Shown: one piece after another, positions 5,868 through 63,735 of the stretch | How positions within the stretch are numbered: the stretch's first letter is position 1 | Layout of the letters: each line of letters begins with the position of its first letter | From: a virus | Virus record (IMG/VR): IMGVR_UViG_3300032087_006189 | Direction: 5' to 3' (one strand) | Length of the DNA: 64,000 nucleotides | Program-made: the position numbers and the translations under genes | Notes under the pieces: generated by a model | What the model was told of the DNA's origin: nothing | What the model saw: the letters and a program-made list of their open reading frames with translations, nothing else | Databases searched by the model: none

Positions 5868-6948
5868 TGTCGGTATCCCGGGACTGCGATGCCAGTCGTG
5901 CCACAAGGACCTGCTGCTCGAGAGGCATCGACTTGAACGATGCTACTGGATCCTTGCGGAACCGATCACGAATGTCCTCGGTGAACACATCTTCCATCGC
6001 GTTCGAAGCCATGCTGCCGGAGTAGCGGCGAAGCTGCGTCTCGGTAACGTAATCACCGCCGTGATTCCAAGAGTATTCCGCTTGCTTTTCCGTAGCAAAA
6101 ACAGCAAGAACCGGGTTGGGCAGTGCCGACCCATACTTGTTCAGGAGACCTGCACGCTCATCCATCAGGAACAGCGCCTCAACCACATCATCTGGATCCA
6201 TCGCTGAAGCCATCTTGCTGAGGCGGATGTAGTCCTTCTGGTAGTCCTCGTTTGCGGTGTACTGCGCTCTGCGCGAGGCAACCTTTTCGAACCGAGGGTT
6301 CAGGCTTGTTCCACTGTACTGGAAGATGTGCGAAGGGACGGAAGCACCGACAGCAGATGCCAGCTTGACGACATCTACCGCTGCTTCGTGCTTGTCGTAG
6401 GGATCCATCTCGTCCCAAGCACGGATAGTCTCGGAGATAGCATCAAAGGCACTGGCTTCCTTGACCTGACCTCGGTGCGTGGGCTCTGCCATGCCGCGGC
6501 CCATGGGGCGCATGACCTGAGAAGGCTCATACACATCGGGGTTGCTGTACTGCGTTGATGAAGCGGTCTTGACATAGAGCCGGCGACCGTCTCCCGGAGT
6601 GTCCAGGTCTTGTGCTGCCAGCAAGGCCAGAGCAGGATGCGGACCCATTCCGAAGTCCTCAGCCGCGTTCAGCAGATTTGCAGAAGCAACCTTCACAGCC
6701 TCGGGAGGGAGGTTGTGATCGACATTCATCAGGTACCACTGAGACATCAGAGTGTTGCCCGGATCGTGGCAGGCGAACTTTCTGTGCTCCTTGCCCTCGC
6801 TGTCTACGAGGATGACAGCGAAATCTCGATCAAGGAGATCGTCCCGCTCTTTCCACTGGGCGGTCTTCAGCAACTCAGCGGCAGATTGGGCCATTCCTGA
6901 CTGCCGAAAGCTCGCGCAGAGATCGTCGTGCTGGTCGATCACGGGCAT
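5854..6948 (-). CDS. Putative head/prohead protein with repeated KxAS motifs
   Basis: AGGAG RBS; six exact KxAS plus KTAQ and KQAE in 364 aa; first gene of the portal operon. Confidence 0.65.
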   Translation of the reverse strand: MPVIDQHDDLCASFRQSGMAQSAAELLKTAQWKERDDLLDRDFAVILVDSEGKEHRKFACHDPGNTLMSQWYLMNVDHNLPPEAVKVASANLLNAAEDFGMGPHPALALLAAQDLDTPGDGRRLYVKTASSTQYSNPDVYEPSQVMRPMGRGMAEPTHRGQVKEASAFDAISETIRAWDEMDPYDKHEAAVDVVKLASAVGASVPSHIFQYSGTSLNPRFEKVASRRAQYTANEDYQKDYIRLSKMASAMDPDDVVEALFLMDERAGLLNKYGSALPNPVLAVFATEKQAEYSWNHGGDYVTETQLRRYSGSMASNAMEDVFTEDIRDRFRKDPVASFKSMPLEQQVLVARLASQSRDTDNGGY

Positions 6949-6969: not shown

Positions 6970-6996
6970 TGCAAGATTTCGAATACGCTGTCATAA
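6970..6996 (+). promoter_or_regulatory. Putative phage promoter TGCAA-N15-GTCATAA for the replication operon
   Basis: Copy 2 of the motif; ~34 nt before ATG 7030. Confidence 0.6.
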
Positions 6997-8840: not shown

Positions 8841-8849
8841 GAGGTTCGA

Positions 8850-19316: not shown

Positions 19317-19324
19317 GAGGGGAC

Positions 19325-48590: not shown

Positions 48591-48624
48591 AAAAAGCCCC
48601 CTCCGGCATCCGCCGGAGGGGGCT
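48591..48624 (-). terminator. Rho-independent terminator after the fibrous protein gene
   Basis: 13-bp stem agccccctccggc/gccggagggggct followed by a T-run on the minus strand. Confidence 0.85.
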
Positions 48625-48641: not shown

Positions 48642-50534
48642 TCAGAACGAGCCGAACTGACCAAGCGGAGCGACCGCGTTGCGCAGGGTGAGGTTGCGGG
48701 TAGCGTAGAAGAACGCACGCGTCGAGGAGGGGTCCGAGTCAGCGCACTGGAAGTCGAACTGAACGACACCGTTGTGGCCAGCAGGAACCTTGAGGAAGAT
48801 CTCAAAGACGCCAGTGGAGACCCGCTTCATCAGGTGCCAGCCGTCGAAGAGGCCGCTGCTGCCGGAAGCCGTAGCTGTGGCAAGGGCGGTGGAGCCGGAG
48901 TCCTCGTAGACGCGGTTGTTGCCGCTGGCGGTGATCTCCGACCCATTCTCGTACACCTTGACAGCGACATGACCGTTGCCGGAGGTGCCGCCAGTCTCAG
49001 TATCGGGCTCCTCAAGCTGGCCGGTGACACCGTCGCGCACCTGAACGGCAATGCGGACGTAGGTGTCCGTGCTGCCAGCGTAGATGAGCTCGGGAGCCGA
49101 GGGGATGAGGCGGGCATTCACGCCAGTCTGCAGGGCATCAACCTTGGCAGCCATTGCAGCGATCTTACCGAAGACGGTGGCATCGCTGGACACGTCAGCG
49201 TTGTCACCAAGCTCGCTGATCAGGGTACCAAGGTCAGAATCCAGGGCGGACAGACCGTGGGTGCCGTGGGTCAGGTTGTCGGCAAGGGCCTTGACTGCGG
49301 CAATGTCTGCAGACACGGACGCTCCGGCAGGAGCACCGAGGCGATCGTAGTTGTCAGTCACGGCAGTCTTGATGGCACCGAGGCCGTCGGTGCCGTTGTC
49401 CAGATCATTCTGAACTCCAGCAACTGCTGACTTGATGGCAGCGAGGCCGTTGGTACCATCTTCGAGGTAGCTGTTGGTCTCGTCGATTACGCCCTTAGCC
49501 GTGGACAGGTCGTCGCCAAGCTTCCGAACCTTTGCGTGCAGCGAGCCAGAGCTGTAGTTGGTGGCAGCCAGATCACTGGCAGCGCCCACGGCGGTGACAA
49601 TGGCATCTACCTCGGTATCAACCTTGGCGTACACATCGGCAACATCGGCACCCAGCTTACGGACCATTGCCATCAGCTTCTTGTCGGTGCCGTAGTCAGC
49701 GGCAGCGCTGTCGCCGAGCGCGCCAAGCATGCCCTCAATGTCATCCACGTTGCCGCTGATGGTATTGAGCTTGCCGTCCATGGTGGACAGGGTGCTATCA
49801 ATAGCGCCAGTATCGGTCACGATACGGTTGTGGATCTCGGCAAGAGCAGCAGAGACGGTAGCGGGGGAGGTGATTCCCGTGTAGCTAGCGGCGCTGATGT
49901 CACCAATTTCTGTCTGCATGTTGCCAAGAGCTGTATCGATGTCGTCCGTCTCAGCTGCGACCTGCTTGATGGCAGCGAAGAGGGATCCGCTCAGAGATGC
50001 AGCATCGGCGTTGGTGCCGATCTTGGTCTTGTTGCTGCCCGCATCGGTGGCAGCGGCCTGAGCCTCGTCAAAGACGATCTTGAGGGCAGCAGCAACGCTT
50101 GCCGGGCTACCTGCGATACCAGCTGCACTGACATCGCCGATCTCGGTCTGGACTTCCTGAATCTCTGCGTACAGGTTGGTGCTGTCGTTGAACAGGCCTC
50201 CGGCACCAGTTGCACCCATTGCGCTCAGGGCATCACCAATGTGGTCCTGGGGGGCGTAGGCCCAGGCCTGAACACGGACAACCTCTTGCCCTGCTGAAAC
50301 CGTGGCGTAGTACATCTTGCCGGCGGTCATGTTGCCGGCGGCAACCTTGAGGGCGTACAGGCCGCCAGCAAGCTCTACGGTGCTGGAGGTGACGGTGCTA
50401 TGGGCGCTGCCGGAGGTAGCGTCGTTTACCTCATAGACATTGGCCGTCAGAGTCAGGCCGGTAGAGGAGAACTGAAGCGGGAAGTAGGCATCTTTCCCGG
50501 AGGGAATAACGCGCTCGAACATCATGGAAGCCAT
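48642..50534 (-). CDS. Segmented coiled-coil fibre protein (fibritin/whisker-like)
   Basis: Central Ala/Asp/Gly-rich heptad segments with internal repeats, globular beta-rich ends, own terminator. Confidence 0.6.
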   Translation of the reverse strand: MASMMFERVIPSGKDAYFPLQFSSTGLTLTANVYEVNDATSGSAHSTVTSSTVELAGGLYALKVAAGNMTAGKMYYATVSAGQEVVRVQAWAYAPQDHIGDALSAMGATGAGGLFNDSTNLYAEIQEVQTEIGDVSAAGIAGSPASVAAALKIVFDEAQAAATDAGSNKTKIGTNADAASLSGSLFAAIKQVAAETDDIDTALGNMQTEIGDISAASYTGITSPATVSAALAEIHNRIVTDTGAIDSTLSTMDGKLNTISGNVDDIEGMLGALGDSAAADYGTDKKLMAMVRKLGADVADVYAKVDTEVDAIVTAVGAASDLAATNYSSGSLHAKVRKLGDDLSTAKGVIDETNSYLEDGTNGLAAIKSAVAGVQNDLDNGTDGLGAIKTAVTDNYDRLGAPAGASVSADIAAVKALADNLTHGTHGLSALDSDLGTLISELGDNADVSSDATVFGKIAAMAAKVDALQTGVNARLIPSAPELIYAGSTDTYVRIAVQVRDGVTGQLEEPDTETGGTSGNGHVAVKVYENGSEITASGNNRVYEDSGSTALATATASGSSGLFDGWHLMKRVSTGVFEIFLKVPAGHNGVVQFDFQCADSDPSSTRAFFYATRNLTLRNAVAPLGQFGSF

Positions 50535-50582
50535 GGTAGAAACCTCGGAGTGTCAGTGAGAGGCGCTGTATCTACGCGGCGC

Positions 50583-50795
50583 TTAGACTTTTCTGATTTG
50601 ATTTTTCAGAGTCTGGTATGTGTTGAAGAACCGGCACTCAGGCGTACTGGGCCAGGTTGACTCCATGCTGTCCAGATCGGAATCTGAGATCTCGAATACC
50701 CAGGATACTCTACGTCCTGATCGCTTTACGGATGCAATCCGGTATCCGTTTGCCACCAGGTATGCGGCAAAGCTCATGTCTTGTGTTTCGTACAT
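50583..50795 (-). CDS. DUF5659-like small phage protein
   Basis: YETQDMSFAAYLVANGY...VSWVFE...FFNTYQTLKNQI. Confidence 0.65.
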   Translation of the reverse strand: MYETQDMSFAAYLVANGYRIASVKRSGRRVSWVFEISDSDLDSMESTWPSTPECRFFNTYQTLKNQIRKV

Positions 50796-51031
50796 TACGT
50801 CAAGGCCGCGGACAGCAGGGGCAGGAACTCGGCAGCAAAGGCCTCGGAGTGCAGTCTTCCCAATTCTATCGTACGGCGTTGGAGTTGTCGAGTGCCGGTC
50901 CTGCCCTCAAGCACTACCAGTAGCAGCTCTTTTTCTCGCAAAAGACGGGCTTCTTCTTTGCGCAAGAGGGCATCGACCTGCGCTCCCAAAGACGCGACCA
51001 TAGAGGCATACGGGCCTGCTGCTTCAGCCAT
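50795..51031 (-). CDS. Hypothetical coiled-coil protein
   Basis: One-base stop/start overlaps on both sides. Confidence 0.55.
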   Translation of the reverse strand: MAEAAGPYASMVASLGAQVDALLRKEEARLLREKELLLVVLEGRTGTRQLQRRTIELGRLHSEAFAAEFLPLLSAALT

Positions 51032-51861
51032 CAGAACGCATCCATGTAGTCTTTGTACTTTTTGGCAATCCGGTTTTTGACCTGAGAAACCTTCGACGGG
51101 CTCCAGCCAAGATTCTTTGCGATCTGACCCATGTTCTCGGTCTTTGGCTTCCCATTCTTGCCAAACAGATATTCGAAGACTGCCTGCTCCTCCAGGGTCA
51201 GGTCATAGGGCAGCATTTCGACGATTTCTCGGTGAACTGAGGAAGTCTCCTCAAATGGATTCACATCGAATCCGCCCTCACCGAGTGTAGGAATCGCAAA
51301 GATGTCGGGGCGCACCTCTTTTGCGAGCCGCTCGACCTTCTTGACGCTGATCTTCATTCGATCTGCGATCTCAATGGAGGTCGGATCTCTATTGAGCTCT
51401 TCGCGCAGGATGTCTTTGGTGCGCTGATACTCGCCGATCTTGTTCGCCTGAGACTCCACGATTCTTGTGAAGTTCTGGTGCTTCTTCACATACCGGTTCA
51501 GGCCACGGAGGTTGTTCGTGACATGAGTGGAAATCACCGCGCCCTTGGCGGGGTCGTACTTGCGCAGAGCCTTCACAGTCAGTGACCGCGCCTCTGCCTC
51601 GACCGTGGGGCGGTACATGCGCGGAGGCGTATGTCGGTTGACCTGAGACGTGATGACCGGATTGAGCGCAGTCAAGAGGGGCTGCAGCTTCTCAGGGTCC
51701 TCATTGGAAGTCTTCCACTGGCGCCACAGATCGATCTCCTTGGCCGCCTTGCCCGTGTACGGGCGAAACTTGCCAGTCTTGTAGTCCTTGGTCCCCCAGG
51801 TTTTCGGAAACTGGTAGGGGTCCTTGGCTGCAATTTTGAGGAGTCGATCCTTGACGGCCAT
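51031..51861 (-). CDS. Sigma70-family sigma factor, group 3 (FliA/SigF-like)
   Basis: Region 2 KALRKYDPAKGAVISTHV; region 3 EELNRDPTSIEIADRMKISVKKV; region 4 LTLEEQAVF...MGQIAKNLGWSPSKVSQVKNRIAKK. Confidence 0.88.
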   Translation of the reverse strand: MAVKDRLLKIAAKDPYQFPKTWGTKDYKTGKFRPYTGKAAKEIDLWRQWKTSNEDPEKLQPLLTALNPVITSQVNRHTPPRMYRPTVEAEARSLTVKALRKYDPAKGAVISTHVTNNLRGLNRYVKKHQNFTRIVESQANKIGEYQRTKDILREELNRDPTSIEIADRMKISVKKVERLAKEVRPDIFAIPTLGEGGFDVNPFEETSSVHREIVEMLPYDLTLEEQAVFEYLFGKNGKPKTENMGQIAKNLGWSPSKVSQVKNRIAKKYKDYMDAF

Positions 51862-51863
51862 GG

Positions 51864-52109
51864 CTACTTCTTCTGCGCGCGGTCCACGAGCTTGCCAGCC
51901 TCTCGAGCAGACATGCCCAGTCGGACATTGCGGCCGTAGTGCTCTTTGTTCGTGTAGAGGCTGCTGAGCTGCTTGTATGCACGCTCACCAAGAACATCCC
52001 GACTCTTGAACAGTTCATCGAGGAGCTGATTCGTGTGTCGAACATTGAGTTTTTCGGCACCCTCAGAGAGCTGGCCATCTACACTGCGCTGAAAGAGCTC
52101 GGACATCAC
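51864..52109 (-). CDS. Hypothetical protein
   Basis: In-operon, 81 aa. Confidence 0.6.
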   Translation of the reverse strand: MMSELFQRSVDGQLSEGAEKLNVRHTNQLLDELFKSRDVLGERAYKQLSSLYTNKEHYGRNVRLGMSAREAGKLVDRAQKK

Positions 52110-52345
52110 ATTCCCTCGTTTTTGCGGAATCTGCTCATAAACCCGGTCTGCTTGAGCAGCTGCTTTTGCTGGTACTCACGCTGACGGCGTGCCACCTTAC
52201 CCTCCCGGGCATCTTGCAGCAGGTCTTTACCGAGAGCACCAGCAGCAAGTCCGCCAGCCCCGATAAGCACTCCTTGCCCACGAGTAAGGGCAGCAATCTT
52301 GTGCATTTCGTCAAAGCAGGCAGCAAGCATCGCCGAGTGGATCAT
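52106..52345 (-). CDS. Small putative internal virion protein
   Basis: GAGG RBS; ACFDEMHKIAA followed by a Gly/Ala hydrophobic stretch, similar to the N-terminus of 4018..5076. Confidence 0.6.
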   Translation of the reverse strand: MIHSAMLAACFDEMHKIAALTRGQGVLIGAGGLAAGALGKDLLQDAREGKVARRQREYQQKQLLKQTGFMSRFRKNEGM

Positions 52346-52346: not shown

Positions 52347-55300
52347 TCAACCTCGTTTTCCGATTCCGGAGGCTCCGGACAGAGCGACGGAACCCTGGAT
52401 TCGCCTCTTGTATAACTCTACACGATCGGCTCGTTCAAGTCTCGGATCCATCCTATCACCTTCTCCGCCATTCAGGTTGAATGTGGGAGTTCCAGATGAA
52501 GTGAGGCTACTGGACAGATCTATGTCTTTTAGATCAAGGTACTCGAGCTTTCCACCATACTCCGCAGACGAAGAGAAACATACGGCATTCGAGTGGTATC
52601 CACCGTAGTATTTTGGAGCGTCCCCGACAGGGGCCGGAGCAGCAGAGAATGACCTAGTCGTAGTGTCGTAGAAATAGGATTTCGAAGCCAAAACCTCGAG
52701 CTGATTTGCGATCGGCCTTCGAGTGAAGTCGTAGATGTAAGACAGCGTATCCTCAGTGATGCCGCCAGTTACTTGCGCTGCAGATTTCTTGGCGTATCGC
52801 AAAGCCACGACATCTACTGCCTCTTCGACGCTTCGCACGGAATATCTCGTATTGGTCACGAGGTCTGTGATCGCCGCCGTCCCAAAAAACGGACCATAAA
52901 TCTTCCCGGTAATGTTGTTTGCGCTGTAATCATCGGAGATCCAGATCGGCCGAATTGCCTCCTCTACCGGAAGCAGGGCCGATCTTCTTGATCTCTCTGA
53001 AATTACACCAACAAACCGATCTCCCGGAAGAACAGCTGGGATGACCAGGTCGTTGCCCACCATGTAGCCTACAAGGTCCATATAGTCGGCGAACTCAAAC
53101 TCCATGCCCGGCTCGGGAAAGTACTTCTTGATCTGAATCTCAACATCGCCTACATCACCAAGAAGCGTAAAGAAGGCAGGACTCCTAAAGTCTTTTACGA
53201 TGATCAAGACTTCTGAATTTCCGTTTTCCCACGTACCCGATGTGACGGTGCCACCCTGATATTCGACCTCTGGCAGGGTCAGCTCTTTCCGCGCTTCTTG
53301 GTCAACTGCTCGATCACCCAAGTCTCCTGTAAGTACCGATGCAGAGAGCGAGGGCTGAGGATCGGATGTAACTGTGAGCCCGTAAATCAGATCTGAGAAT
53401 GACTGAAAGCCCAAGGTAGCCGCCACGGCGTACCAAAAAAAGGCTTGATCTCCCGTCGCAGTACTGGCGATGTTTGAAGTAATTCCTCCGCCAATAGACA
53501 GGTCAGCATTTCCAGAGGCTTCTACTCTGGTAATAACTGCATCTTGAATTGTCAGGGTGCCGTCACTGCCAATCAGCTCAGAAAATATATCATCCGACTG
53601 GTCTCCAGTACGGTGTGAGCGCACCTGAGACAGACGCACCTGAGTCTGTGCTCCGCCCTGACTGATTGAGTGAGTGACAGACTGAACCATGCCTAGCTTG
53701 AATGATCTCGGAGAAGATGTAGGAGACGAAAGCGCATCCTCCATCGCAATCTCTGAAGATGTCATTGTCGAGTCGATGACCAGAGCGGGGAACCCGGGAA
53801 TGATGTGGGGGCTGATGCTCAGGCTTAGGGATGCGGATCTAGCTGCGTATCGACTCGTAAGAAGACGAAAATGCGCAACCTTTGAGGCATAGGTACCGAA
53901 AGTTTCTCTATCTTCGACTGTAGATGCGTCGGTAACAGGATTCTTGAGGCCGAAGTAGATGGCGTCAGTCATGCGCTCGAACTTCGGGACGATGCCACTG
54001 AATTTCTCGTGGTCGAAGATCAGATTGGATGTGGCCCGCTCCCCCAGTGCGGAAGCAAGGCTGGCCCCAGTCAGCTCCGGCGCAAAGAAGTACCGGTTCA
54101 GGATCGCGCTATCTGATGTCGCAAACTCGAATCCCACATCGAGTTGAAGACGGGAAGCTTCCCGGATCAATTCTCGGCTTGTAGAAAACGACTGGATCAT
54201 GTCAGGGAAGATGACATTGCTCTTTGGCGGCGGACAAAACCACACGTCTGGACGAACGATGTGCGTGTAGAGGGCTTCCCGACTCCCAGATACGCCTGTG
54301 CCTATGATCTCTGAGGCCTTGGTGGTTGTGACGTTGTTCTTTCCGACACCAAAGTCTTTAATTTGGACATGCACCGGGTCCCACCCTAGCCCCATGACTT
54401 CGACAAGCAGCGGGCACGTCGTGCCCCCAAAGAGCTTTTCTTTCCCCGCCCCGAGGTATGCGAGGTTGTGGGCTGCAGCCAACGTCTCTGCTTGTTGGTA
54501 GAAAAGGACATAGTCCTTGGCAATTTGAATGTCCAAGTCGAAGCGAGTCAGGCCGCCCGGGTACTTGTCGCCAGTCAGATGAAAGCGGACTTGGGTTTCA
54601 AAAGCTGCGAGATTGAGGGTAGAAGGATCTACGCGCGTAGTTGTCGCCAACGTGAAAAGGGCTCGGCGCAGGTTTTTGTACCAAGTACCGGTGGTGGTCG
54701 CGTCCTTAATGGGCGTGCCTGGCTTATGAAACTCATAGGGTAGGCCTACGCCCCACTTGGAGGGGTTTCCCTTTGACTCTGTGTCGTCCTTGTAGGAAAA
54801 CACGAAGTCCATCGCAAGCCCCCACTCATGGGCGATTGCCTTGTCATCGGTGCCGGGCTCTCTAAACGCGCTCGACAGATGGACAGTCGCCGGAGAGCTC
54901 AGACCCGTTGCTGCAAATGAGTTGAGGGCCGTGAGGAACGGAATGAGCTGCTCATGGAACTCCGCTTGAATGAAGAACTCTACTTTATCGCTGATCAAGA
55001 ACTCATCGTATTGAGCCCGTTGTTCCTCTGTAAGCTCCCCAATGAGCTGCTTTAGTGACGAAAACTTCGGGATGTCCCGATTCGGCTTACCGGGGCTGTC
55101 TGTGCTGTTGCCGGGGAGGTATCGGGCGCAGGGATTCGGCACCATCTCGTAGAACACATATTCAAACACGATCGAGGTGAGTTGGCGGAAGCTCATGACC
55201 TGGCCTCTGTCAGCCAGCCTCTTTGTCAGCCACTCTGAAAACTGCTTGACCTGAAACACCTGTGAAGCGGTCTCTCCAGAGTCCCCAACAACCGATTCCA

Positions 55301-55931
55301 AAAAGCGGACTCGGCGCTCCTGAACAGACACAAACTGATTCAACCCGTATGAGAGCCCTTGAACCCCGCACAGAATCTCAAGTACCGCAAGCAGTCCTCC
55401 CAGAAGGGTCTGCTTACCTGAGTGCTGTGGCATAGATGGGCTTTTGGTAAGAGCTCTGCGGATTACCTCTTCTGGGTTGTTGGTGATGTTGTCAAACAGC
55501 AGGTTCTGCGCGCCTAAGAAAATAGATGTATCTCGGACAATGGTGTTGCTTTCAGTGTCCTGGCCCCCGATTCGTGCCTGGTAGAGGTAGTTCGTATCGA
55601 GGACATTTGAGAAGTCGAGGCATGTCAAAGTGGCGCTTCTGGAGCCCATTCCTGCCTTGTTGCTCGATACCCCGAACAGCTCTCCGCAAAACAGCAGCTT
55701 GTAGTGGGTGTCCAGTGGGGCCTCTCTCCCACTTCTCCGGAATGCCATGTGGTCCAAGTAGAACAAGTGGACCACTGTGCGCGGGAGAAGTAGGTCCAGA
55801 GAGTCATCCGGCACGATCTCAATGGTTGCTGATGCAGGAGATCCGATCGTCGCCGTCACCGATGCTCCGATCACGGGTACTTGGATCCCCTCAAGAAACA
55901 GCCTGAGATCAAGATAGAAGCCCTGGTTCAC
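52347..55931 (-). CDS. Baseplate hub-like protein with inserted M15-type Zn peptidase domain
   Basis: Hub-like N-terminus (LFLEGIQVPV...ASATIEI...LLFCGE...TLTCLD) and PHIIPGFP...VQSVTHSI; SSAFR...AHEWGLAMD...DPVHVQ. Confidence 0.72.
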   Translation of the reverse strand: MNQGFYLDLRLFLEGIQVPVIGASVTATIGSPASATIEIVPDDSLDLLLPRTVVHLFYLDHMAFRRSGREAPLDTHYKLLFCGELFGVSSNKAGMGSRSATLTCLDFSNVLDTNYLYQARIGGQDTESNTIVRDTSIFLGAQNLLFDNITNNPEEVIRRALTKSPSMPQHSGKQTLLGGLLAVLEILCGVQGLSYGLNQFVSVQERRVRFLESVVGDSGETASQVFQVKQFSEWLTKRLADRGQVMSFRQLTSIVFEYVFYEMVPNPCARYLPGNSTDSPGKPNRDIPKFSSLKQLIGELTEEQRAQYDEFLISDKVEFFIQAEFHEQLIPFLTALNSFAATGLSSPATVHLSSAFREPGTDDKAIAHEWGLAMDFVFSYKDDTESKGNPSKWGVGLPYEFHKPGTPIKDATTTGTWYKNLRRALFTLATTTRVDPSTLNLAAFETQVRFHLTGDKYPGGLTRFDLDIQIAKDYVLFYQQAETLAAAHNLAYLGAGKEKLFGGTTCPLLVEVMGLGWDPVHVQIKDFGVGKNNVTTTKASEIIGTGVSGSREALYTHIVRPDVWFCPPPKSNVIFPDMIQSFSTSRELIREASRLQLDVGFEFATSDSAILNRYFFAPELTGASLASALGERATSNLIFDHEKFSGIVPKFERMTDAIYFGLKNPVTDASTVEDRETFGTYASKVAHFRLLTSRYAARSASLSLSISPHIIPGFPALVIDSTMTSSEIAMEDALSSPTSSPRSFKLGMVQSVTHSISQGGAQTQVRLSQVRSHRTGDQSDDIFSELIGSDGTLTIQDAVITRVEASGNADLSIGGGITSNIASTATGDQAFFWYAVAATLGFQSFSDLIYGLTVTSDPQPSLSASVLTGDLGDRAVDQEARKELTLPEVEYQGGTVTSGTWENGNSEVLIIVKDFRSPAFFTLLGDVGDVEIQIKKYFPEPGMEFEFADYMDLVGYMVGNDLVIPAVLPGDRFVGVISERSRRSALLPVEEAIRPIWISDDYSANNITGKIYGPFFGTAAITDLVTNTRYSVRSVEEAVDVVALRYAKKSAAQVTGGITEDTLSYIYDFTRRPIANQLEVLASKSYFYDTTTRSFSAAPAPVGDAPKYYGGYHSNAVCFSSSAEYGGKLEYLDLKDIDLSSSLTSSGTPTFNLNGGEGDRMDPRLERADRVELYKRRIQGSVALSGASGIGKRG

Positions 55932-57592
55932 AAGATCACCGACATGATTGTTTCAGCAGTACTTGGCTGAATGACTCCAGTTTCTCCGCGGATAACTGCA
56001 CCACGCGCATCTTGCACCAGCCGTCGCTGCTCTGCTGTGCGCTGAGCCTCTGCGATACTTGACTGCATCGCGGCGGTCTGGGCCTTGCTGAGGTTGCCGG
56101 TATTCGGGTTTGTGATGCTCTCTTGAAGCTCTCGACGGTTGTTGACAATGCTGTTTCCGATAGCGAGCGTTGCGATTGCATACGCCCCGCGGCCAACAAG
56201 CCGGAGTGCATCAGAGATAATGGCCTGAGTACGCAAAGTTTGCTGGTACGCAACTGCCTGCGTCTCGAGGGCACTCCGGGAAGTACCAGGGACCGACCCA
56301 GGAAACGGTGCAACCTTGATTCCGAAGGCAGCAAACGCTGCTACTGCTTGTGTGGAGTACAACAGCCGCTCGGGCACATCTCTGTAGAATCTTGCCGTTG
56401 CCTCTGCCTCAGCTGCGTCCGTTACAAATGTGCCATCAACCGGGTAGTTGACATACTCGTCGAAGTTCTGGAAATAATACCGAGAAGTCTCTCTCTGAAA
56501 CTTGAGCAGCGCGTCCGTAAGCAGCTCCCCATCGGTGTTGGTGCGCAATACGACCGTTTTCACCGCGCTCGGAGTATCTGAGAATGCGAGGGTTGGGGCG
56601 CCGAAGAAGTTCGTAAGCGTCTTGTTTCCAAGAGCATCTACATCAGATCCTTCTGCAAATAGCGAGTTTCTCGGAGGCCCACCGGATCCCACAAAGCTCA
56701 ATGGAACGACCATGTTGCGGCCGTACAGGAAGTTTCGGGCCTTCCTGATCACATTGTCGAGAGCTGCGTCAATTGAGTTCAGGGCTCCCATGAGCTTGCC
56801 GAGGGTACCGGGCTCTGACCCCAGAGGAGACAACTTGATGTTTGTCCTCCGTACCGCGGCGGTCGTGCTCTCGTCCAAACGCAGCTGATCGTCTGGGCTG
56901 GCAAGCGCACCTACTCCGAGAAGATCTCCAGAAGCATTCGGATCTCGACGCGGAGCCTCCGGATTGAGCTCTCCCCGAGAAACGCTTTCGACAAACATCG
57001 AGAAGTTGAGCTGGATGACATACGGATCTTGGCTTGAAGCGATGGTTGTGCAGTTGGTGATGTACCCGGAAACAATAGTCTCGTCCCTACCGCTGCCATA
57101 GCGCAGCTGGGCTTTTGTATTTGAGCTGGTAAGCGATGTTCCTCGAAGACGACCTTCGTAGTTCATCCACCACTCTTTGTGCCACTCGAAGTCCGCCGTG
57201 TTGGGGAGGATGGCGGTGCAGTTGATCAACCTCGGCTGCTCTCCGAAGAAGAAGCCGTAGGTCGCCCCGAATGTAGTGATGAACTGCGACTTCTCGTTTC
57301 GCGTCTCCGTGATGTTCTGCAGCAAAAAGTTGTGCGTGTAGTAGGTCGTCTGGGCAGGAGGGGCACTCGTATTGTAAAGAGCCCGCCCTTCTGGCTTGGA
57401 AGAGCCTCCAGCGCCTACGATCGTAATAGAAGCATGAGTGTCTGTCGGGACAACGATGCCTCGCATCGGGCGGCGGATGAACTGCTCCTCGTTCATAGAT
57501 CCAATACTCGTGGATACCGAGTCGGACTGCCCGTTTCCTCTCAAGACCAGATCGGCAGTGAGCAGTGTTTGGAAGACAGCGGGATCGGACAT
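55928..57592 (-). CDS. Tail/baseplate protein (possible tube-initiator-like N-domain)
   Basis: Lies between the tape-measure-like gene and the hub; beta-rich N-domain FLLQNITETRNEKSQFITTFG...FFGEQPR. Confidence 0.5.
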   Translation of the reverse strand: MSDPAVFQTLLTADLVLRGNGQSDSVSTSIGSMNEEQFIRRPMRGIVVPTDTHASITIVGAGGSSKPEGRALYNTSAPPAQTTYYTHNFLLQNITETRNEKSQFITTFGATYGFFFGEQPRLINCTAILPNTADFEWHKEWWMNYEGRLRGTSLTSSNTKAQLRYGSGRDETIVSGYITNCTTIASSQDPYVIQLNFSMFVESVSRGELNPEAPRRDPNASGDLLGVGALASPDDQLRLDESTTAAVRRTNIKLSPLGSEPGTLGKLMGALNSIDAALDNVIRKARNFLYGRNMVVPLSFVGSGGPPRNSLFAEGSDVDALGNKTLTNFFGAPTLAFSDTPSAVKTVVLRTNTDGELLTDALLKFQRETSRYYFQNFDEYVNYPVDGTFVTDAAEAEATARFYRDVPERLLYSTQAVAAFAAFGIKVAPFPGSVPGTSRSALETQAVAYQQTLRTQAIISDALRLVGRGAYAIATLAIGNSIVNNRRELQESITNPNTGNLSKAQTAAMQSSIAEAQRTAEQRRLVQDARGAVIRGETGVIQPSTAETIMSVIL

Positions 57593-57834
57593 CAGCGCAC
57601 CACCGGAACTCGAGTACGAATCAGGCTACTGACCAGATCGTAATCCATGAGGGACTCGTACTCTCGCCCAAGTACGATCTCGCCAATCATCCGATCTACA
57701 GCCTGCTGCGCAATATCGTCGATGACTGGGTACTCCGTGATCCGCACTTCGCGGGTAAGCCCGTCCTCGTCAACGTACTGGAAGATCTCTTCCTTACGCT
57801 CATCAGAGATGCGTTCTACGATTTGCGAGCTCAT
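57592..57834 (-). CDS. Hypothetical protein
   Basis: TGATG-coupled on both sides. Confidence 0.6.
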   Translation of the reverse strand: MSSQIVERISDERKEEIFQYVDEDGLTREVRITEYPVIDDIAQQAVDRMIGEIVLGREYESLMDYDLVSSLIRTRVPVVR

Positions 57835-60800
57835 CAGCCATCCTCTTTCTTTTCTGGGTCAGGAATAAACCCGGCCACATACGAGATGCCCGTCTTGTTG
57901 AGCGTCTCTGCAGTGAGCTGCACCTGCTCAGAGGTTTTTCGGACATTTTGATCTGTTTGATTTAGCAAATTGGCCATTATCTGCTGCTCGGTCTGTCCTC
58001 CGTCAAGCAAAGAGCGCTTGTCCGTGTCGAGCCCGAGGTCGGCTGCCTTGAGCGCACCAATTGCTGAGCCAAGCTTTTTAGCATCAACCTTAATGCTGCT
58101 GCCGGCAATGCTGCCGCCCTGCTCCTTGACAAGCTTTCGGACTTGGTCCTGGCTTAGGCCCATATCCGTCAACTCGGACATCGTCAGCCCGTCGCGGGCC
58201 GCTCGACTAACCGCGGTAGCAGCCTCTACCCCAAATCCCAGCATCTGGGACTCAACATCATCCGCGCCGGTTGCCACAAACCCTTCTTGTGCGAGCTTTT
58301 GAATGCTGCGCTGCAGGGCAGAGAAGTTGGTCTCTGCCTTCCCGGAGTCAAACTGCCGCTCAAGCCCACTCTCCCTAAGGGCGGCCATACCCAGGCTCGA
58401 CAACTGCTCATCCACTCGCCGCTGGGCTTCCTTGTTGACTAGATTTGAGGCAGCAGTTCCAATCTTCTTAAGGAGGCCTGCATCTACTCCTGATGTTCGT
58501 CGTTCGGACGCATTCCTGCCCGTCTTGTGCTGCATGAGAACTTCGAGATCTCTTACATCCTGAGCAGAGATTTTGAGCCCGAATCTCTTGTTCAGTTTCT
58601 TTGCAGCGGCGTCTGGGTCGTTTCCTGCGATGATGTGATCAATCTCTTTTTGGCTTTTTTCATACTTCTGCAAGAGAGCGGAGCTTTCTCCTCCCTGCTC
58701 AATTCGATCGAATGCTTCCTCGAGGTTGCTATCAACCGCAAATCGTGCCGCAGAAAATAGGGCACCGCTTACCCCACCGAATGCGACATTTTGACCTACT
58801 GACCCTATTTTCTCTATAGAGCCAAAAGCAGCGAAAGGAGAGCTAAAGTCCATCGTGAAGTCAGTCGCGCCTCTCGTACCAAACAGTCTGGAGAGATCTT
58901 GTTGGTCGGAACGGGTAGAATCTACCGAAAGCCCGGCATCTTTCTTGTTTTTGAAGTATTCGGCAAGAAGCTGTTCGGTCCGCTCACGATCTTCCGGGGC
59001 AGCTGATTTCAGGGCAATAGCGGCTGCCCGCTCTTCGTCGATACCGATATTTGTTGCGCTGGCTGCGCCGAGGGGGCTCACAATAGAAAGTGCAGATTTT
59101 GCAGCGACATGCTTGAGCCTGCTGCTCGGATCTGCTTGAAACATTATCTGCCTCAGGGCCCCAGAAATATCTGCGTCTGCAGCAGACTTACCAGAGCCTG
59201 CCGCAAAAACTGCGTTTGCTGCCGATGTACCGCGCACGCGAGACACCATGTCATCGGAGACAGATGGAAGAGCCTGCCCAATCATCCCTCGCCGAGCAGC
59301 TTCCCCAATACCCATGGTCCTGCCAGAGCCGGCGCGACCCATCATGGCAGACATGACAGCCTCATCAAGCGCCTCTTGAGTGGTCCCGATTGTCACGCGA
59401 GTACTTCCTTTCCCCAGCATAAACCTCTCGACATCTTGGCTGCTCTCTATGACCCCTCGGTAGTACGAAGAAGCGGCGTCTGTGAGGGGATTGAAGGCAT
59501 CGGAGATGGTTCCCCCAATACGCTGCGCGGCTCCTGACAGGGTCGCGTTTTCCCGAAGTTCTGCTGCCCTCTGGCTTGCCAAGATCTCTTGTTTTAGCGC
59601 CGACAATCTTTGTCCACGGCCGCTCTTTAGTTCTTGCAGCTTACGAACTGCACGACGATCCATGTTGAACTGGGTCTCAGCAACCAGCTGGAAGAGGTCT
59701 TGATCTTCTCCGGCACCCTCTCCAAACATCTCTTCGGTGATCGATCGAACCATACCAAACAGAGCTTCCTGTCCCTGATCTGACTCGAGCATAGACTCCA
59801 TGATGTCTTGGCGACGGGCCGTAAAGGATGCCTGGCCAATTCGGGAGCCACGCTTCCCTCCCCCGATGTCCATCAGCTCGTTTCTAGACAGGTTGCCTTG
59901 CGCCATACGGCGCAGGATTCCTGCATCGATCTCTCCTGTGAACCTCCCAGACTTATCCGTTGCTCCTGCAGCGAGGAGCATTCCAGTTCCCAGTGCTCCT
60001 GACAATCCTCCCATCGTGCCAGCAAGAGTCTGTTGGGCCATCATCTGCGCAGCCTCAAGCGGGGTTGATGCCCCCGTCATGTCCATCATCTCTTCTGCGC
60101 TCATCTGACCAGTGCGGATGGCGTTCATAAACTCGGCGGTCTTTGCGGTGATCATCCCTGCACCGGCACGACCGGACATCTGAGCTCCGCGGGTCATCCC
60201 TGCGCCAGTTCTCTGCATCTGCGCAAACTGCTGAGAGCTCATGCCAAAGCCGCGCATTAGAGTCATGTTGGCGGTGTTGCCCATGACGTCCTGTGCGGAG
60301 TAAAAACCGGACCCCTTCATATCTTTGAAGATCTGCCCGGCTTCCTCCATTGAGGTGCCCAGAGAGCGAGCCATCTGGTGCATGGTCTTACCGAGCTCGG
60401 TCACCTTCTTTGCCAGCTTCTCGGCGTCCTGCACTCCCTGGTGCATCCCCATTTCGGTGAATCGCTCTGTCGCGCGAAGCGCGTCGGACATCGAAACAAA
60501 CGGGTTGTTCGCGTCGATAGCTCGCACACCACGCTGCAGCGTCATCAGATCGTTTTGGCTGAATCCTCGGCCAGTTGTTGGGTCTCCCGAAGCGTTGACA
60601 AACTGCATGTTGCCAAACATGTTTCCGACGGCATTCGCGTTTTGCACTCCCGTATTTGCAATACTCAGTCCAGCGCCTGCGGCCATAAGCCCAAGACCGA
60701 TCGGCCCGCCGGCTAGGGCCATTGGGCTGGCCATGCCGAGAGAAGCTCCTGTACCTAAGGCGGTTGCTCCGGTAAGGACTCCCAAAGAGGTGGCTCCGCC

Positions 60801-61055
60801 GGCCCCAGCCGCACCACCACCAATTGCGGCAATACTAGGAAAAAACCCGGCGGCAATGCCCGCTCCAGAAGCAAGCATTCCCGCTGCACCCGACATTCCC
60901 GTCGCAAGGCCAAGACCGCCCGTTATCAACCGATTGCCAGCGTACGCCCCACCAGTAGCCTGGGCGTGGCCAGTCGGAGCGTAGCTGAAGGTGGGTGGGT
61001 AGTGCGATGAGCCCATATTGGGCTGCATCGGCATCATTCCGGGCTGCGGATACAT
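57834..61055 (-). CDS. Tape-measure-like protein (~1073 aa)
   Basis: Ala/Gly/Met/Gln-rich and helical, with hydrophobic Gly-rich segments; upstream of the hub genes; ATG 61055 with AGGTG RBS. Confidence 0.6.
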   Translation of the reverse strand: MYPQPGMMPMQPNMGSSHYPPTFSYAPTGHAQATGGAYAGNRLITGGLGLATGMSGAAGMLASGAGIAAGFFPSIAAIGGGAAGAGGATSLGVLTGATALGTGASLGMASPMALAGGPIGLGLMAAGAGLSIANTGVQNANAVGNMFGNMQFVNASGDPTTGRGFSQNDLMTLQRGVRAIDANNPFVSMSDALRATERFTEMGMHQGVQDAEKLAKKVTELGKTMHQMARSLGTSMEEAGQIFKDMKGSGFYSAQDVMGNTANMTLMRGFGMSSQQFAQMQRTGAGMTRGAQMSGRAGAGMITAKTAEFMNAIRTGQMSAEEMMDMTGASTPLEAAQMMAQQTLAGTMGGLSGALGTGMLLAAGATDKSGRFTGEIDAGILRRMAQGNLSRNELMDIGGGKRGSRIGQASFTARRQDIMESMLESDQGQEALFGMVRSITEEMFGEGAGEDQDLFQLVAETQFNMDRRAVRKLQELKSGRGQRLSALKQEILASQRAAELRENATLSGAAQRIGGTISDAFNPLTDAASSYYRGVIESSQDVERFMLGKGSTRVTIGTTQEALDEAVMSAMMGRAGSGRTMGIGEAARRGMIGQALPSVSDDMVSRVRGTSAANAVFAAGSGKSAADADISGALRQIMFQADPSSRLKHVAAKSALSIVSPLGAASATNIGIDEERAAAIALKSAAPEDRERTEQLLAEYFKNKKDAGLSVDSTRSDQQDLSRLFGTRGATDFTMDFSSPFAAFGSIEKIGSVGQNVAFGGVSGALFSAARFAVDSNLEEAFDRIEQGGESSALLQKYEKSQKEIDHIIAGNDPDAAAKKLNKRFGLKISAQDVRDLEVLMQHKTGRNASERRTSGVDAGLLKKIGTAASNLVNKEAQRRVDEQLSSLGMAALRESGLERQFDSGKAETNFSALQRSIQKLAQEGFVATGADDVESQMLGFGVEAATAVSRAARDGLTMSELTDMGLSQDQVRKLVKEQGGSIAGSSIKVDAKKLGSAIGALKAADLGLDTDKRSLLDGGQTEQQIMANLLNQTDQNVRKTSEQVQLTAETLNKTGISYVAGFIPDPEKKEDG

Positions 61056-61081
61056 CAAATATCACCTGTTTGGCGGCATAA
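61055..61081 (+). promoter_or_regulatory. Putative phage promoter TCAAA-N15-GGCATAA
   Basis: Copy 3 of the motif; ~27 nt before ATG 61108. Confidence 0.55.
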
Positions 61082-61107
61082 TACCACTAACGGCACAAGG
61101 AGGTATC

Positions 61108-61520: not shown

Positions 61521-61718
61521 TCACGTTAGCCTGCACGGACCCATTGGATCGGGCTTGAGGTTCTCAGAGAACTTCCCAGTTTCTTTAGCCACAATAAATG
61601 ACTTGATGATCGCGCGCTCGAACTTCGCCAGCGGCTCCGCACCCTGGCCGCGGAACCACTTCTCGAAGGCATCAATCTGGGCATCCGCGCGAGCCAAAAT
61701 TTCCTTTCTTTCGGTCAT
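61521..61718 (-). CDS. Hypothetical protein (65 aa, MTERKEIL...)
   Basis: GGAG RBS then ATG 61718; protein-like helical sequence. Confidence 0.55.
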   Translation of the reverse strand: MTERKEILARADAQIDAFEKWFRGQGAEPLAKFERAIIKSFIVAKETGKFSENLKPDPMGPCRLT

Positions 61719-61720
61719 AA
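61694..61720 (+). promoter_or_regulatory. Putative phage promoter CCAAA-N15-GTCATAA
   Basis: Copy 4 of the motif; ~18 nt before the ligase ATG. Confidence 0.55.
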
Positions 61721-63443: not shown

Positions 63444-63709
63444 CAGTCAATTTCCTCGCTAAGAATGGTACGGACTTCCTTCTCCATCTCGGCAACGCCG
63501 TCCTCCAGTTCCTCTACAATCTCCTCGATGAGATCGGTCGAAACTGGTGCGCCTTCGCACGAGATCTGGGCCAAAGGCTCAGGAACCCCATCACGAGGCA
63601 AGAACCGCGTGCGGAGAATCTGAGCAAGGGTAGACTGCACTGCAGCCCGCCCCTTCAGCTCCTTCACCTCTGTAATCACGGACCCCACAGTCTTCGATGC
63701 TGCTGGCAT
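63443..63709 (-). CDS. Hypothetical protein
   Basis: AAGGAG RBS before ATG 63709 (MPAASK). Confidence 0.65.
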   Translation of the reverse strand: MPAASKTVGSVITEVKELKGRAAVQSTLAQILRTRFLPRDGVPEPLAQISCEGAPVSTDLIEEIVEELEDGVAEMEKEVRTILSEEID

Positions 63710-63735
63710 GAAAAAACTCCTTTTTTCTGCCATAA
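63709..63735 (+). promoter_or_regulatory. Putative phage promoter TGAAA-N15-GCCATAA
   Basis: Copy 5 of the motif; immediately upstream of the candidate ncRNA. Confidence 0.55.

What the first reader, a model, noticed from the sequence alone, without database searches (positions are those of the whole stretch)
51031..52345. Sigma factor in the tail operon with a head-protein-like N-terminal tag: possibly a virion-packaged sigma
Seen: the sigma gene lies among structural genes and is co-oriented with them. It starts MAVKDRLLKIAAK, ahead of the recognisable sigma core. Two genes upstream, a 79-aa protein has FDEMHKIAA, and the protein next to the portal has FSEEMTKLSA. The putative target promoters drive replication genes, which should be needed before late genes are expressed. 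Inference: the sigma is made late, cleaved at K-x-A, packaged and injected, probably with the phage RNAP, to start the next infection. Known contrast: phiKZ-like virion RNAPs are highly diverged and are not known to use a canonical group-3 sigma, while SPO1 and T4 sigmas act with host core after infection.
Basis: inference. Interest (0 to 1): 0.8.

Follow-up and report, generated by a model that had tools for sequence, protein, structure and literature searches.

The report
Phage sigma factor with capsid-loading tag
A large uncultured phage that carries its own bacterial-type RNA polymerase encodes the matching sigma factor among its tail genes and gives it a short Lys-x-Ala leader, so the sigma is probably packed into the virus particle and injected to start the next infection, though neither packing nor cutting has been measured in this phage.

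Summary
Window 51031-51861 (-) encodes a 276-aa group-3 (SigD/sigma-28-like) sigma factor. It is the seventh gene of a ten-gene tail/baseplate operon that ends in a strong terminator. This position is conserved as far as Salmonella phage Arash and Vibrio phage D69.

The genome has one RNA polymerase, a fused beta::beta' gene beside the portal.

A sigma-28-like motif (AAA-N15-GNCATAA) occurs 29 times in three related genomes. All 29 sites lie on the strand opposite the structural, sigma and polymerase genes.

The sigma's first 12 residues end in K-I-A-A. Half of 125 diverged family representatives that have an N-terminal extension carry K-x-A-[A/S] there (63 against 9 in shuffles). The same motif crowds a scaffold-like head protein and flanks a probable gp21-fold head protease.

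Published virion mass spectrometry of Arash found its orthologous sigma at high peptide density, together with the polymerase, but not Arash's second sigma. That preparation also held replication enzymes, and the Arash sigma has no leader.

Verdict: the virion-packaged reading is the best-supported one (about 0.55) but unproven. The leader of this copy is a weak match. This scan has noted the same leader on sigma factors of related phages before. It is a new variant of known kinds (T4 capsid-targeting tags, phiKZ and N4 virion polymerases).

The parts
51031..51861 (-). Sigma factor gene, 276 aa, group-3 type
   Evidence: Pfam Sigma70_r3 1.6e-10. PHROG 351. PDB profile hits span a whole group-3 sigma. 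AF2 model pLDDT 82; best Foldseek hits are SigD, SigA, sigma-S and SigB.
51826..51861 (-). Leader, residues 1-12, a predicted helix ending in K-I-A-A (candidate capsid-targeting and cleavage tag)
   Evidence: AF2 helix 3-13. Leave-sigma-out matrix score. K-x-A-[A/S] present in 63 of 125 family representatives with an extension, against 9.2 in shuffles.
51754..51825 (-). Rest of the N-terminal extension (residues 13-36, K-D-P-x-Q-F-P-x-x-W block); absent from the Arash and D69 sigmas
   Evidence: Alignment A1; Arash and D69 translations.
51037..51753 (-). Sigma core: sigma2 (residues 37-129), sigma3 (136-182), disordered linker, sigma4 (208-275)
   Evidence: AF2 secondary structure and confidence; alignments to solved sigma factors.
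51864..52109 (-). 81-aa ORF between the leader protein and sigma; function unknown; conserved as a 78-aa ORF in G001
52106..52345 (-). 79-aa protein with the full leader (x-F-D-E-M-x-K-I-A-A) followed by a Gly-rich hydrophobic segment
   Evidence: It is the top matrix score of all proteins.
52347..61058 (-). Upstream genes of the operon: 1074, 80, 554 and 1194 aa. The 554- and 1194-aa proteins are weak homologues of Arash virion proteins gp6 and gp8; the 1074-aa protein corresponds to gp4 by position and size only.
   Evidence: Synteny. BLASTP 1e-4 and 7e-5. Arash virion proteome.
48642..51031 (-). Downstream genes of the operon: 78 aa, 70 aa (DUF5659) and a 630-aa fibritin-like fibre
48595..48624 (-). 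Intrinsic terminator that ends the sigma operon (13-bp stem, 11 G-C pairs, T run)
1..1152 (-). First 384 codons (N-terminal part) of the 2117-aa fused beta::beta' RNA polymerase, the presumed partner of the sigma
   Evidence: Pfam Rpb2_2/6/7 followed by Rpb1_2/3/5 in one ORF. E 1e-125 to bacterial beta'.
4018..5076 (-). 352-aa protein next to the portal with leader F-S-E-E-M-T-K-L-S-A
5854..6948 (-). 364-aa scaffold-like head protein with 4-6 conserved K-x-A-[S/A] sites
   Evidence: Alignment with G001 and G002 homologues; motif counts.
1152..1179 (+). Sigma-28-like promoter motif, facing away from the polymerase gene
6970..6996 (+). Promoter motif in front of the replication operon. Its -35 reads GCAA, so the strict pattern misses it.
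61055..61081 (+). Promoter motif diverging from the start of the sigma operon
61694..61720 (+). Promoter motif in the ligase region
63709..63735 (+). Promoter motif at the right end of the window

Best explanation
The gene encodes the promoter-specificity subunit of the phage's own fused beta::beta' RNA polymerase. It is a compact group-3 sigma (sigma2-sigma3-sigma4).

It is transcribed late, as the seventh gene of a tail/baseplate operon. Its first 12 residues form a short helix ending in Lys-Ile-Ala-Ala. This is a weak copy of a leader (aromatic/Leu-x-x-Glu-Leu/Met-x-Lys-x-Ala-Ala/Ser) that at least ten unrelated protein families of this phage group carry.

The Lys-x-Ala-[Ala/Ser] end of that leader is the motif that crowds the scaffold-like head protein and brackets the probable gp21/assemblin-fold head protease. 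The leader therefore most likely works like the phage T4 capsid-targeting sequence. It would take the sigma, alone or bound to the polymerase, into the prohead, where the protease trims it.

The loaded sigma and polymerase would be ejected with the DNA and start transcription at the AAA-N15-GNCATAA promoters. These promoters drive only the accessory, replication and ligase units on the other strand.

Shown here: sigma identity, operon structure, conserved synteny, promoter distribution, motif enrichment and conservation. Shown in an orthologue by others: presence in virions. Inferred: timing, cleavage, capsid loading, ejection, and which polymerase and promoters the sigma serves.
For: 1. Sigma identity.
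2. Operon: ten tightly packed minus-strand genes, a terminator after the fibre gene, and neither a sigma-70-like nor a phage-type promoter inside.
3. The same gene order (large virion proteins, small ORF, sigma, baseplate-J protein) in Arash and D69 at 31-36% sigma identity.
4. Arash virion mass spectrometry (PMC10585845, with lengths). Sigma gp10 gave 24 unique peptides in 234 aa and 467 spectra, with 100% coverage. That density is as high as the major capsid protein (30 in 307 aa) and the polymerase gp206 (128 in 1525 aa). The replication enzymes checked (primase, ligase, two ATP-dependent helicases, uracil-DNA glycosylase) gave only 2-3 unique peptides each. Arash's second sigma gp196 is not in the table.
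5. One polymerase per genome, bacterial-type and beside the portal.
6. 29 of 29 strict promoter-motif sites lie on the strand opposite the structural, sigma and polymerase genes, against 0.2-0.9 expected per genome.
7. Phi-x-K-x-A-[S/A/G] is enriched: 45 against 11.8 (G001), 26 against 10.2 (G002), 18 against 9.0 (G000), and 27 against 4.8 in the Arash head block. It is concentrated in the scaffold-like protein and beside the protease domain.
8. Probable protease: PHROG head maturation protease at 1.5e-4; T4 gp21 is the top structural hit (Z 5.4, 141 residues, rmsd 3.8). Its Arash homologue gp222 lies in the head module.
9. Sigma family: 63 of 125 representatives at <=50% identity that have an extension carry K-x-A-[A/S] in it, against 9.2 +/- 2.9 in shuffles. 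Density is 11.6 per 1000 aa there and 0.9 in the core.
10. Leave-sigma-out matrix scores.
Against: - No cleavage, packaging or ejection has been measured for this phage or for any leader-bearing relative.
- The Arash preparation was purified on a sucrose gradient only. It listed 116 proteins, including ribonucleotide reductase, ligase and primase, so carry-over of abundant cytoplasmic proteins is possible; the authors say so themselves.
- The Arash and D69 sigmas lack the extension and leader entirely, as do 24 of 149 family representatives. Arash gp10 had 100% coverage.
- This window's copy is a weak match to the leader: it has neither the aromatic residue nor the Glu, and scores 5.5 bits.
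- The protease assignment is modest (Z 5.4; Pfam S77 finds nothing).
- The polymerase of this lineage has no convincing leader.
- The promoter of the structural strand is unknown. A TATA[C/A/G]T-like hexamer next to each divergent promoter could let host polymerase make the sigma and polymerase early.
- The genome copies examined are 42-70% complete, so a second sigma or polymerase could have been missed.
Confidence: 0.55

Rival explanations
1. The sigma is not packaged. It is made with the late genes and acts in the same infection cycle, for example to keep the accessory and replication units transcribed. Host polymerase starts the cycle. The N-terminal extension is then a regulatory or polymerase-docking element, like region 1.1, and the Arash detection is carry-over.
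For: The Arash proteome lists 116 of about 250 proteins, including replication enzymes, and its authors raise contamination themselves. The Arash and D69 sigmas have no leader. TATA[C/A/G]T-like hexamers lie upstream of the structural-strand operons. Residues 13-36 of the extension are modelled at fair confidence, consistent with packing near sigma2.
Against: The same leader sits on at least ten unrelated families, including membrane-like and Zn-ribbon proteins, which a sigma-specific regulatory role does not explain. Peptide density of Arash gp10 equals that of capsid and polymerase proteins and far exceeds that of the replication enzymes checked, while the second sigma gp196 is absent. The sigma lies about 9 kb into a tail operon, and no site of the phage's one recognisable promoter motif faces that strand.
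Confidence: 0.25
2. The sigma is packaged, but the K-I-A-A leader is not the loading or cutting signal. The sigma would enter the capsid by binding the polymerase or another internal protein, and the resemblance of this copy to the leader would be incidental.
For: Arash gp10 is in the virion preparation without any leader and with 100% coverage. This window's copy scores only 5.5 bits. The Arash and D69 polymerase beta subunits begin M-P-K-x-A-S, so a tag may sit on the partner instead.
Against: K-x-A-[A/S] persists in the otherwise unalignable N-termini of half of the representatives that have an extension, about 13-fold denser than in the core. Orthologues in G001 and G002 score 12-14 bits against a matrix that excludes sigma factors.
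Confidence: 0.12
3. The sigma redirects the host core polymerase, as SPO1 gp28 or T4 gp55 do, rather than serving the phage polymerase.
For: It is a canonical sigma-70-family protein whose closest solved relatives are bacterial sigma factors. Reviews state that phage sigma factors act with host core.
Against: In all five genomes checked it occurs together with a bacterial-type phage polymerase. That polymerase aligns over E. coli beta' residues 177-943, a range that includes the clamp helices where sigma2 docks (position from general knowledge). No alpha, omega or other specificity factor was seen. In Arash both proteins are abundant in the same preparation.
Confidence: 0.08

Closest known systems
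Phage T4 capsid-targeting sequence on internal proteins IPI-III and Alt, removed by prohead protease gp21
   Same: A short (about 10-20 aa) N-terminal peptide on unrelated proteins. It ends at the motif that also fills the scaffold/core proteins, and a gp21-fold protease is encoded in the head module. The cargo is ejected with the DNA (PMC7411985).
   Different: The motif is Lys-x-Ala-[Ala/Ser] rather than Leu/Ile-x-Glu, and there is no sequence similarity to the T4 tag. The cargo here is a transcription factor. Nothing has been measured.
Virion RNA polymerases of phiKZ/SPN3US-type jumbo phages and of phage N4
   Same: A phage polymerase carried in the particle and ejected to transcribe early genes from phage-specific promoters. 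The polymerase genes sit among late or structural genes.
   Different: The phiKZ-type enzymes are split into 4-5 diverged beta/beta' pieces and have no sigma homologue. N4 uses a single-subunit enzyme. Here there is one fused, bacterial-type beta::beta' (E 1e-125 to solved beta') plus a canonical sigma.
Salmonella phage Arash gp10 (annotated RpoS-like sigma) and Vibrio phage D69 VPHD69_0011
   Same: Orthologues (31-36% identity over the core) in the same position of the tail operon. The polymerase lies beside the portal. The same Lys-x-Ala-rich head module is present. Arash gp10 was detected in virions.
   Different: They lack the roughly 40-aa N-terminal extension and leader. Their polymerase is split (gp206 and gp216) and its beta subunit starts M-P-K-x-A-S. 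They also have a second, non-virion sigma (gp196) that was not found in the partial genomes of this lineage.
Phage sigma factors that use host core polymerase (SPO1 gp28, T4 gp55, phiEco32 gp36)
   Same: A phage-encoded sigma-70-family protein that directs transcription to phage promoters.
   Different: Those are made after infection and bind host core. This one is encoded with a phage polymerase, in a virion operon, and carries a leader.
FliA/SigD (sigma-28) promoters, TAAA-N15-GCCGATAA
   Same: The phage motif AAA-N15/16-G-N-C-A-T-A-A has the same layout and spacing. B. subtilis SigD is the best structural match of the sigma model.
   Different: The -10 element is one base shorter. A further conserved T-A-G-T-A-G-like block follows it. 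Recognition by this sigma has not been tested.

Membership tests
Sigma-70 family, group 3 (SigD/FliA/SigB-like) | Sigma3 domain | tested here: met
   Pfam Sigma70_r3 41.4 bits against a cut-off of 25.3.
Sigma-70 family, group 3 (SigD/FliA/SigB-like) | Sigma2 domain (regions 1.2-2.4) | tested here: met
   Pfam r2 does not hit. The family profile aligns positions 30-262 to residues 6-252 of S. aureus SigB (8x6g_H) and to regions 2-4 of SigA and RpoS. The AF2 helices 37-129 superpose on solved sigma factors.
Sigma-70 family, group 3 (SigD/FliA/SigB-like) | Sigma4 helix-turn-helix | tested here: met
   Pfam r4 scores 17.8 bits, below the 24.1 cut-off. The profile alignment runs through region 4 of SigB and SigA, and the model has helices 208-275 at pLDDT 85-93.
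Sigma-70 family, group 3 (SigD/FliA/SigB-like) | No region 1.1 and no non-conserved insertion; about 230-280 aa | tested here: met
   276 aa. Only a 36-aa extension precedes sigma2.
Sigma-70 family, group 3 (SigD/FliA/SigB-like) | Binds core polymerase and directs initiation at cognate promoters | not testable with these tools
   Needs biochemistry or a multimer prediction. The promoter motif is present, but its link to this sigma is inferred.
T4-type capsid-targeting sequence | The same short N-terminal peptide on unrelated proteins | tested here: met
   Leaders on at least 10 families in G000, G001 and G002. The sigma orthologues score 12-14 bits and this copy 5.5 bits.
T4-type capsid-targeting sequence | The peptide ends at the head protease's cleavage motif, which also fills the core/scaffold proteins | tested here: inconclusive
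   K-x-A-[S/A] is enriched 2-4-fold genome-wide, occurs 4-6 times in the 364-aa head protein and flanks the protease domain. No cleavage data exist.
T4-type capsid-targeting sequence | A gp21-type prohead protease is encoded | tested here: inconclusive
   PHROG 18299 at 1.5e-4. T4 gp21 is the top hit at Z 5.4, Foldseek probability 0.80. Pfam S77 finds no hit.
T4-type capsid-targeting sequence | Sequence of the T4 tag and its Leu/Ile-x-Glu cut site | tested here: not met
   The motif here is Lys-x-Ala-[Ala/Ser]. It may work like a T4 tag but is not a member by sequence.
T4-type capsid-targeting sequence | The tag is sufficient for capsid loading and is removed in the head | not testable with these tools
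   Needs virion proteomics or tagged reporters.
phiKZ-type virion RNA polymerase system | Polymerase subunits present in virions | tested here: inconclusive
   Known only for the orthologues in Arash, from published mass spectrometry of a preparation that also held replication enzymes.
phiKZ-type virion RNA polymerase system | Split, highly diverged beta/beta' pieces, two polymerase sets, no sigma | tested here: not met
   One fused beta::beta' with strong Pfam and PDB matches, plus a canonical sigma.

The most novel reading that the evidence does not exclude
A whole bacterial-type initiation kit (fused beta::beta' polymerase, canonical sigma and an SNF2-type helicase) is loaded into the capsid through a Lys-x-Ala leader and ejected to run early transcription. 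The tag may sit on either partner of the holoenzyme. In this lineage it is on the sigma. In Arash and D69 it is on the polymerase beta subunit (M-P-K-x-A-S). One tagged subunit would then carry the other in. This would be the first virion-delivered sigma factor. It would also mean that a large, mostly uncultured phage group (534 sigma clusters at E<1e-30) does not depend on host transcription.
Probability: 0.3. Interest if true: 0.85.

Novelty: new variant of a known kind. Interest (0 to 1): 0.68.

Why it matters
The reviews read here state that phages with their own multisubunit polymerases have no sigma, and that phage sigma factors serve host polymerase. This phage group breaks both rules. 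It pairs a bacterial-type fused polymerase with a canonical sigma, and it probably ships both inside the particle.

If true, this would be a third, independent route to host-independent early transcription, after N4 and phiKZ. It would use parts whose biochemistry is already well understood. It would also extend the T4 'address tag' principle to a new cleavage rule (Lys-x-Ala).

The idea can be tested now, because a cultured relative (Salmonella phage Arash) exists. A short, portable capsid-loading tag would also be a useful tool for loading proteins into phage heads.

Tried and rejected
- Pfam and PHROGs on the operon neighbours (1074, 554, 1194, 79, 81 and 78 aa) gave nothing useful. PDB sequence searches of the 1194- and 554-aa proteins found nothing.
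- The ESM Atlas search of the 277-aa head-module protein gave only sub-threshold hits.
- Pfam Peptidase_S77 found no match in any of the five genomes. The protease call rests on a PHROG hit and a modest fold match.
- GNCATAA alone is not over-represented (9 sites against 13.7 expected). Only the bipartite motif is.
- A search for a shared motif upstream of the structural-strand operons found only the reverse complement of the divergent promoters. The late promoter remains unknown.
- No Arash gp196-type second sigma, and no Sigma70_r2 match at all (the window's sigma does not hit r2 either), was found in G000-G003, which are 42-70% complete.
- The Arash supplement holds only the annotation table, with no peptide lists, so new N-termini could not be checked.
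It was rewritten to read the leaders by coordinates.
- The moraphage paper (PMC12619734) was checked and concerns a different lineage without a polymerase.
Full report
**What is there**

The window is bases 9132-73131 of a 78.5-kb viral contig that CheckV rates 42% complete. Identical or related sigma proteins occur on contigs of up to 155-168 kb.

ORF 51031-51861 (-) encodes 276 aa and starts exactly as quoted. It is a sigma-70-family protein on four lines of evidence:
- Pfam Sigma70_r3 at 1.6e-10, and region 4 just below threshold.
- PHROG 351 at 1e-14.
- A family profile that aligns over the whole length of S. aureus SigB and over regions 2-4 of SigA and RpoS.
- An AF2 model (pLDDT 82) with sigma2 at residues 37-129, sigma3 at 136-182, a disordered linker and sigma4 at 208-275. 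Its best structural matches are B. subtilis SigD, SigA, sigma-S, SigB and WhiG.

Residues 1-36 lie outside the canonical sigma: a helix at 3-13, then a loop.

**Context**

Reading along the minus strand, the gene order is: 1074 aa, 80 aa, 554 aa, 1194 aa, 79 aa, 81 aa, sigma, 78 aa, 70 aa, then a 630-aa fibritin-like protein. A 13-bp G+C-rich terminator follows at 48595-48624. The genes overlap or abut. No sigma-70-like or phage-type promoter lies inside the operon.

The same order is found in Salmonella phage Arash and Vibrio phage D69. In Arash it runs gp4, gp5, gp6, gp7, gp8 cell-wall hydrolase, gp9, sigma gp10, gp11, gp12, then the baseplate-J protein gp13. Weak but significant homology links the 554- and 1194-aa proteins to gp6 and gp8, and the 2332- and 1619-aa baseplate-region proteins to gp13 and gp14. 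So the phrase 'in the tail operon, co-oriented' is correct, and the position is conserved down to 31-36% sigma identity.

**The partner polymerase**

A 2117-aa ORF, whose first 384 codons lie at window 1-1152, carries Rpb2 domains 2, 6 and 7 followed by Rpb1 domains 2, 3 and 5. It is therefore a fused beta::beta'. It matches solved bacterial beta' chains at E 1e-125, and the alignment spans E. coli beta' 177-943. There is one copy per genome in G000-G003. In Arash the enzyme is split into gp206 and gp216.

It lies next to the portal, on the structural strand. Only one sigma of this family occurs per genome.

Reviews state that phages with multisubunit polymerases have no sigma and that phage sigma factors serve host core (PMC7824862 and PMC13282480). 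This group does not fit that rule.

**Promoters**

The bipartite pattern NAAA-N14-17-GNCATAA occurs as follows:
- G000: 4 sites, 0.43 expected from shuffles.
- G001: 5 sites, 0.87 expected.
- G002: 20 sites, 0.17 expected.

All 29 sites are on the strand opposite the structural, sigma and polymerase genes. They precede small accessory ORFs and the ligase region. A further site with a variant -35 precedes the replication operon.

The layout resembles sigma-28 promoters, which fits a SigD-like sigma. The link between the motif and this sigma is still inferred. No motif was found for the structural strand. Each structural operon start abuts a divergent promoter, and a TATA[C/A/G]T-like hexamer lies beside it.

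**The leader**

Phi-x-K-x-A-[S/A/G] is over-represented:
- G001: 45 sites against 11.8 +/- 3.7 expected.
- G002: 26 against 10.2.
- G000: 18 against 9.0.

The motif is concentrated in a few proteins. The 364-aa head protein (window 5854-6948) has 4-6 conserved sites and looks like a scaffold.

A 631-aa protein (G001 9744-11639) has the motif at residue 35 and again near residues 291 and 395, and the two internal sites fall in low-confidence linkers of its AF2 model. Its N-terminal domain hits PHROG 'head maturation protease' at 1.5e-4 and has T4 gp21 as the top structural match (Z 5.4, 141 residues, rmsd 3.8; Foldseek probability 0.80). This is suggestive rather than firm. Its Arash homologue gp222 lies in the head module, and the Arash head block is equally rich in the motif (27 against 4.8).

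A longer leader, aromatic/Leu-x-[D/E]-E-[L/M]-x-K-x-[A/S], lies within about 20 residues of the start of at least ten unrelated families.

A matrix built from 19 such leaders, with sigma factors left out, scores the three sigma orthologues as follows:
- This window's sigma: 5.5 bits; 90 of 7040 shuffled N-termini reach that score.
- G001 orthologue: 12.2 bits; 2 of 7040.
- G002 orthologue: 13.7 bits; 0 of 7040.

**Family-wide test**

A profile search of 1.8 billion representatives found 534 clusters at E<1e-30. Of the best 149, 125 have at least 10 residues ahead of the core. Of those, 63 carry K-x-A-[A/S] there, against 9.2 +/- 2.9 in shuffles (maximum 20). The density is 11.6 per 1000 aa in the extension and 0.9 in the core. 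In the wider set, which also counts the 48 close homologues, the Lys sits at a median of residue 11 and Lys/Pro-rich linkers often follow.

So the motif is conserved even where the rest of the extension cannot be aligned. The relatedness of the sequences inflates such comparisons somewhat. Twenty-four representatives, and the Arash and D69 sigmas, have no extension at all.

**Experimental evidence from a relative**

The Arash paper (PMC10585845) analysed sucrose-gradient virions by LC-MS. Unique peptides, with protein lengths, were:
- Sigma gp10: 24 in 234 aa (467 spectra, 100% coverage).
- Polymerase gp206: 128 in 1525 aa.
- Polymerase gp216: 40 in 606 aa.
- Helicase gp217: 38 in 472 aa.
- Major capsid protein: 30 in 307 aa.
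- Portal: 32 in 579 aa.
- Primase, ligase, uracil-DNA glycosylase and two ATP-dependent helicases: 2-3 each.

Arash's second sigma, gp196, is not listed. The authors suggest early transcription as one explanation and carry-over as another. With 116 proteins listed, the preparation was not clean. Even so, the sigma's peptide density sits with the true structural proteins.

**How it most likely works**

The sigma is made late with the tail proteins. It is addressed to the prohead by its leader, or by binding the polymerase, and trimmed after Lys-x-Ala by the head protease. It is then ejected with the fused polymerase, and probably an SNF2-type helicase, and starts transcription at the sigma-28-like promoters of the other strand.

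Two observations hint that one tag may serve the whole holoenzyme. The Arash and D69 polymerase beta subunits begin M-P-K-x-A-S while their sigma factors are bare. Here the sigma is tagged and the polymerase N-terminus is not. This rests on two lineages and is speculation.

**Comparison and novelty**

The mechanism resembles the T4 capsid-targeting sequence (PMC7411985) and the virion polymerases of phiKZ, SPN3US and N4. It is a member of neither family. The cut motif differs from T4, and the polymerase is fused, bacterial-type and sigma-dependent.

The presence of a sigma in Arash virions is in print, but the leader and the promoter logic are not. This scan has noted the same kind of leader on sigma factors of related uncultured phages. 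I treated those notes as leads and re-tested the parts used here.

Verdict: a new variant of known kinds, with confidence 0.55 for the packaged-sigma reading.

Noticed in passing
window 1-1152 (-), continuing to G000 3930-10283: A single 2117-aa ORF fuses all beta and beta' domains of a bacterial-type RNA polymerase. Its alignment to solved beta' chains starts at about E. coli residue 177, so the beta' N-terminal part (the Zn-finger region) is missing or diverged.
   Followed up: partly
G002 36877-39753 (+); homologue at G000 75597-78320 (window 66466-69189, outside the window): The SNF2-family helicase (958 aa in G002) scores 13.3 bits for the leader at residue 3. Arash helicase gp217, next to beta', is as abundant in virions as the polymerase (38 unique peptides); its relationship to this helicase was not tested. 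A helicase may therefore be co-packaged with the polymerase.
   Followed up: partly
L040 10094-10111 (Arash gp206) and L052 about 1501-1518 (Vibrio phage D69): Both polymerase beta subunits begin M-P-K-x-A-S, which is a Lys-x-Ala-Ser motif at the extreme N-terminus. Their sigma factors lack any leader.
   Followed up: partly
L040 657-1694 (Arash gp196); L041 (D69): Arash and D69 have a second sigma of about 345 aa with a clear Sigma70_r2 domain. It is absent from the Arash virion table and was not found in the partial genomes G000-G003.
   Followed up: partly
Homologues of G001 9744-11639 (P0258, P0280, P0287, P0292, P0296, P0297, P0310, P0311): Several homologues of the probable head protease-scaffold protein are about 1000 aa long and carry intein/Hint/LAGLIDADG domains. 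This would be an unusual host gene for inteins.
   Followed up: no
G001 18865-19416, 19425-19985, 24349-24858, 91112-92122; G002 108219-108677, 113734-114177: A second, minimal tag M-[D/N]-K-[I/L/V]-A-A-Y sits at the very start of at least six small proteins, several with glycine-zipper-like segments. Arash gp100 starts M-E-K-Q-A-S in the same way.
   Followed up: no
window 1140-1200, 6949-7023, 61040-61100, and the matching places in G001 and G002: Each structural-strand operon start (polymerase, head, tail) lies 20-60 nt from the reverse complement of a divergent promoter's -10 element. A TATA[C/A/G]T-like hexamer on the structural strand sits beside it. This may be a bidirectional or overlapping late promoter.
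   Followed up: partly
G002 1-30500 (-): Seventeen of the 20 strict promoter-motif sites in G002 fall here, each ahead of small ORFs and followed by a conserved T-A-G-T-A-G-like block. The region looks like an early or accessory cassette array.
   Followed up: partly
window 50583-50795 (-): A 70-aa DUF5659 protein (Pfam 8.9e-5, just under the cut-off) lies two genes downstream of the sigma in the same operon. Its function is unknown.
   Followed up: no
L040 30685-31608 (Arash gp226): The Arash major capsid protein has K-E-A-G near residue 27, and its reported coverage (86.6% of 307 aa) leaves about 41 residues unseen. This is compatible with loss of an N-terminal propeptide at a Lys-x-Ala site.
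   Followed up: no
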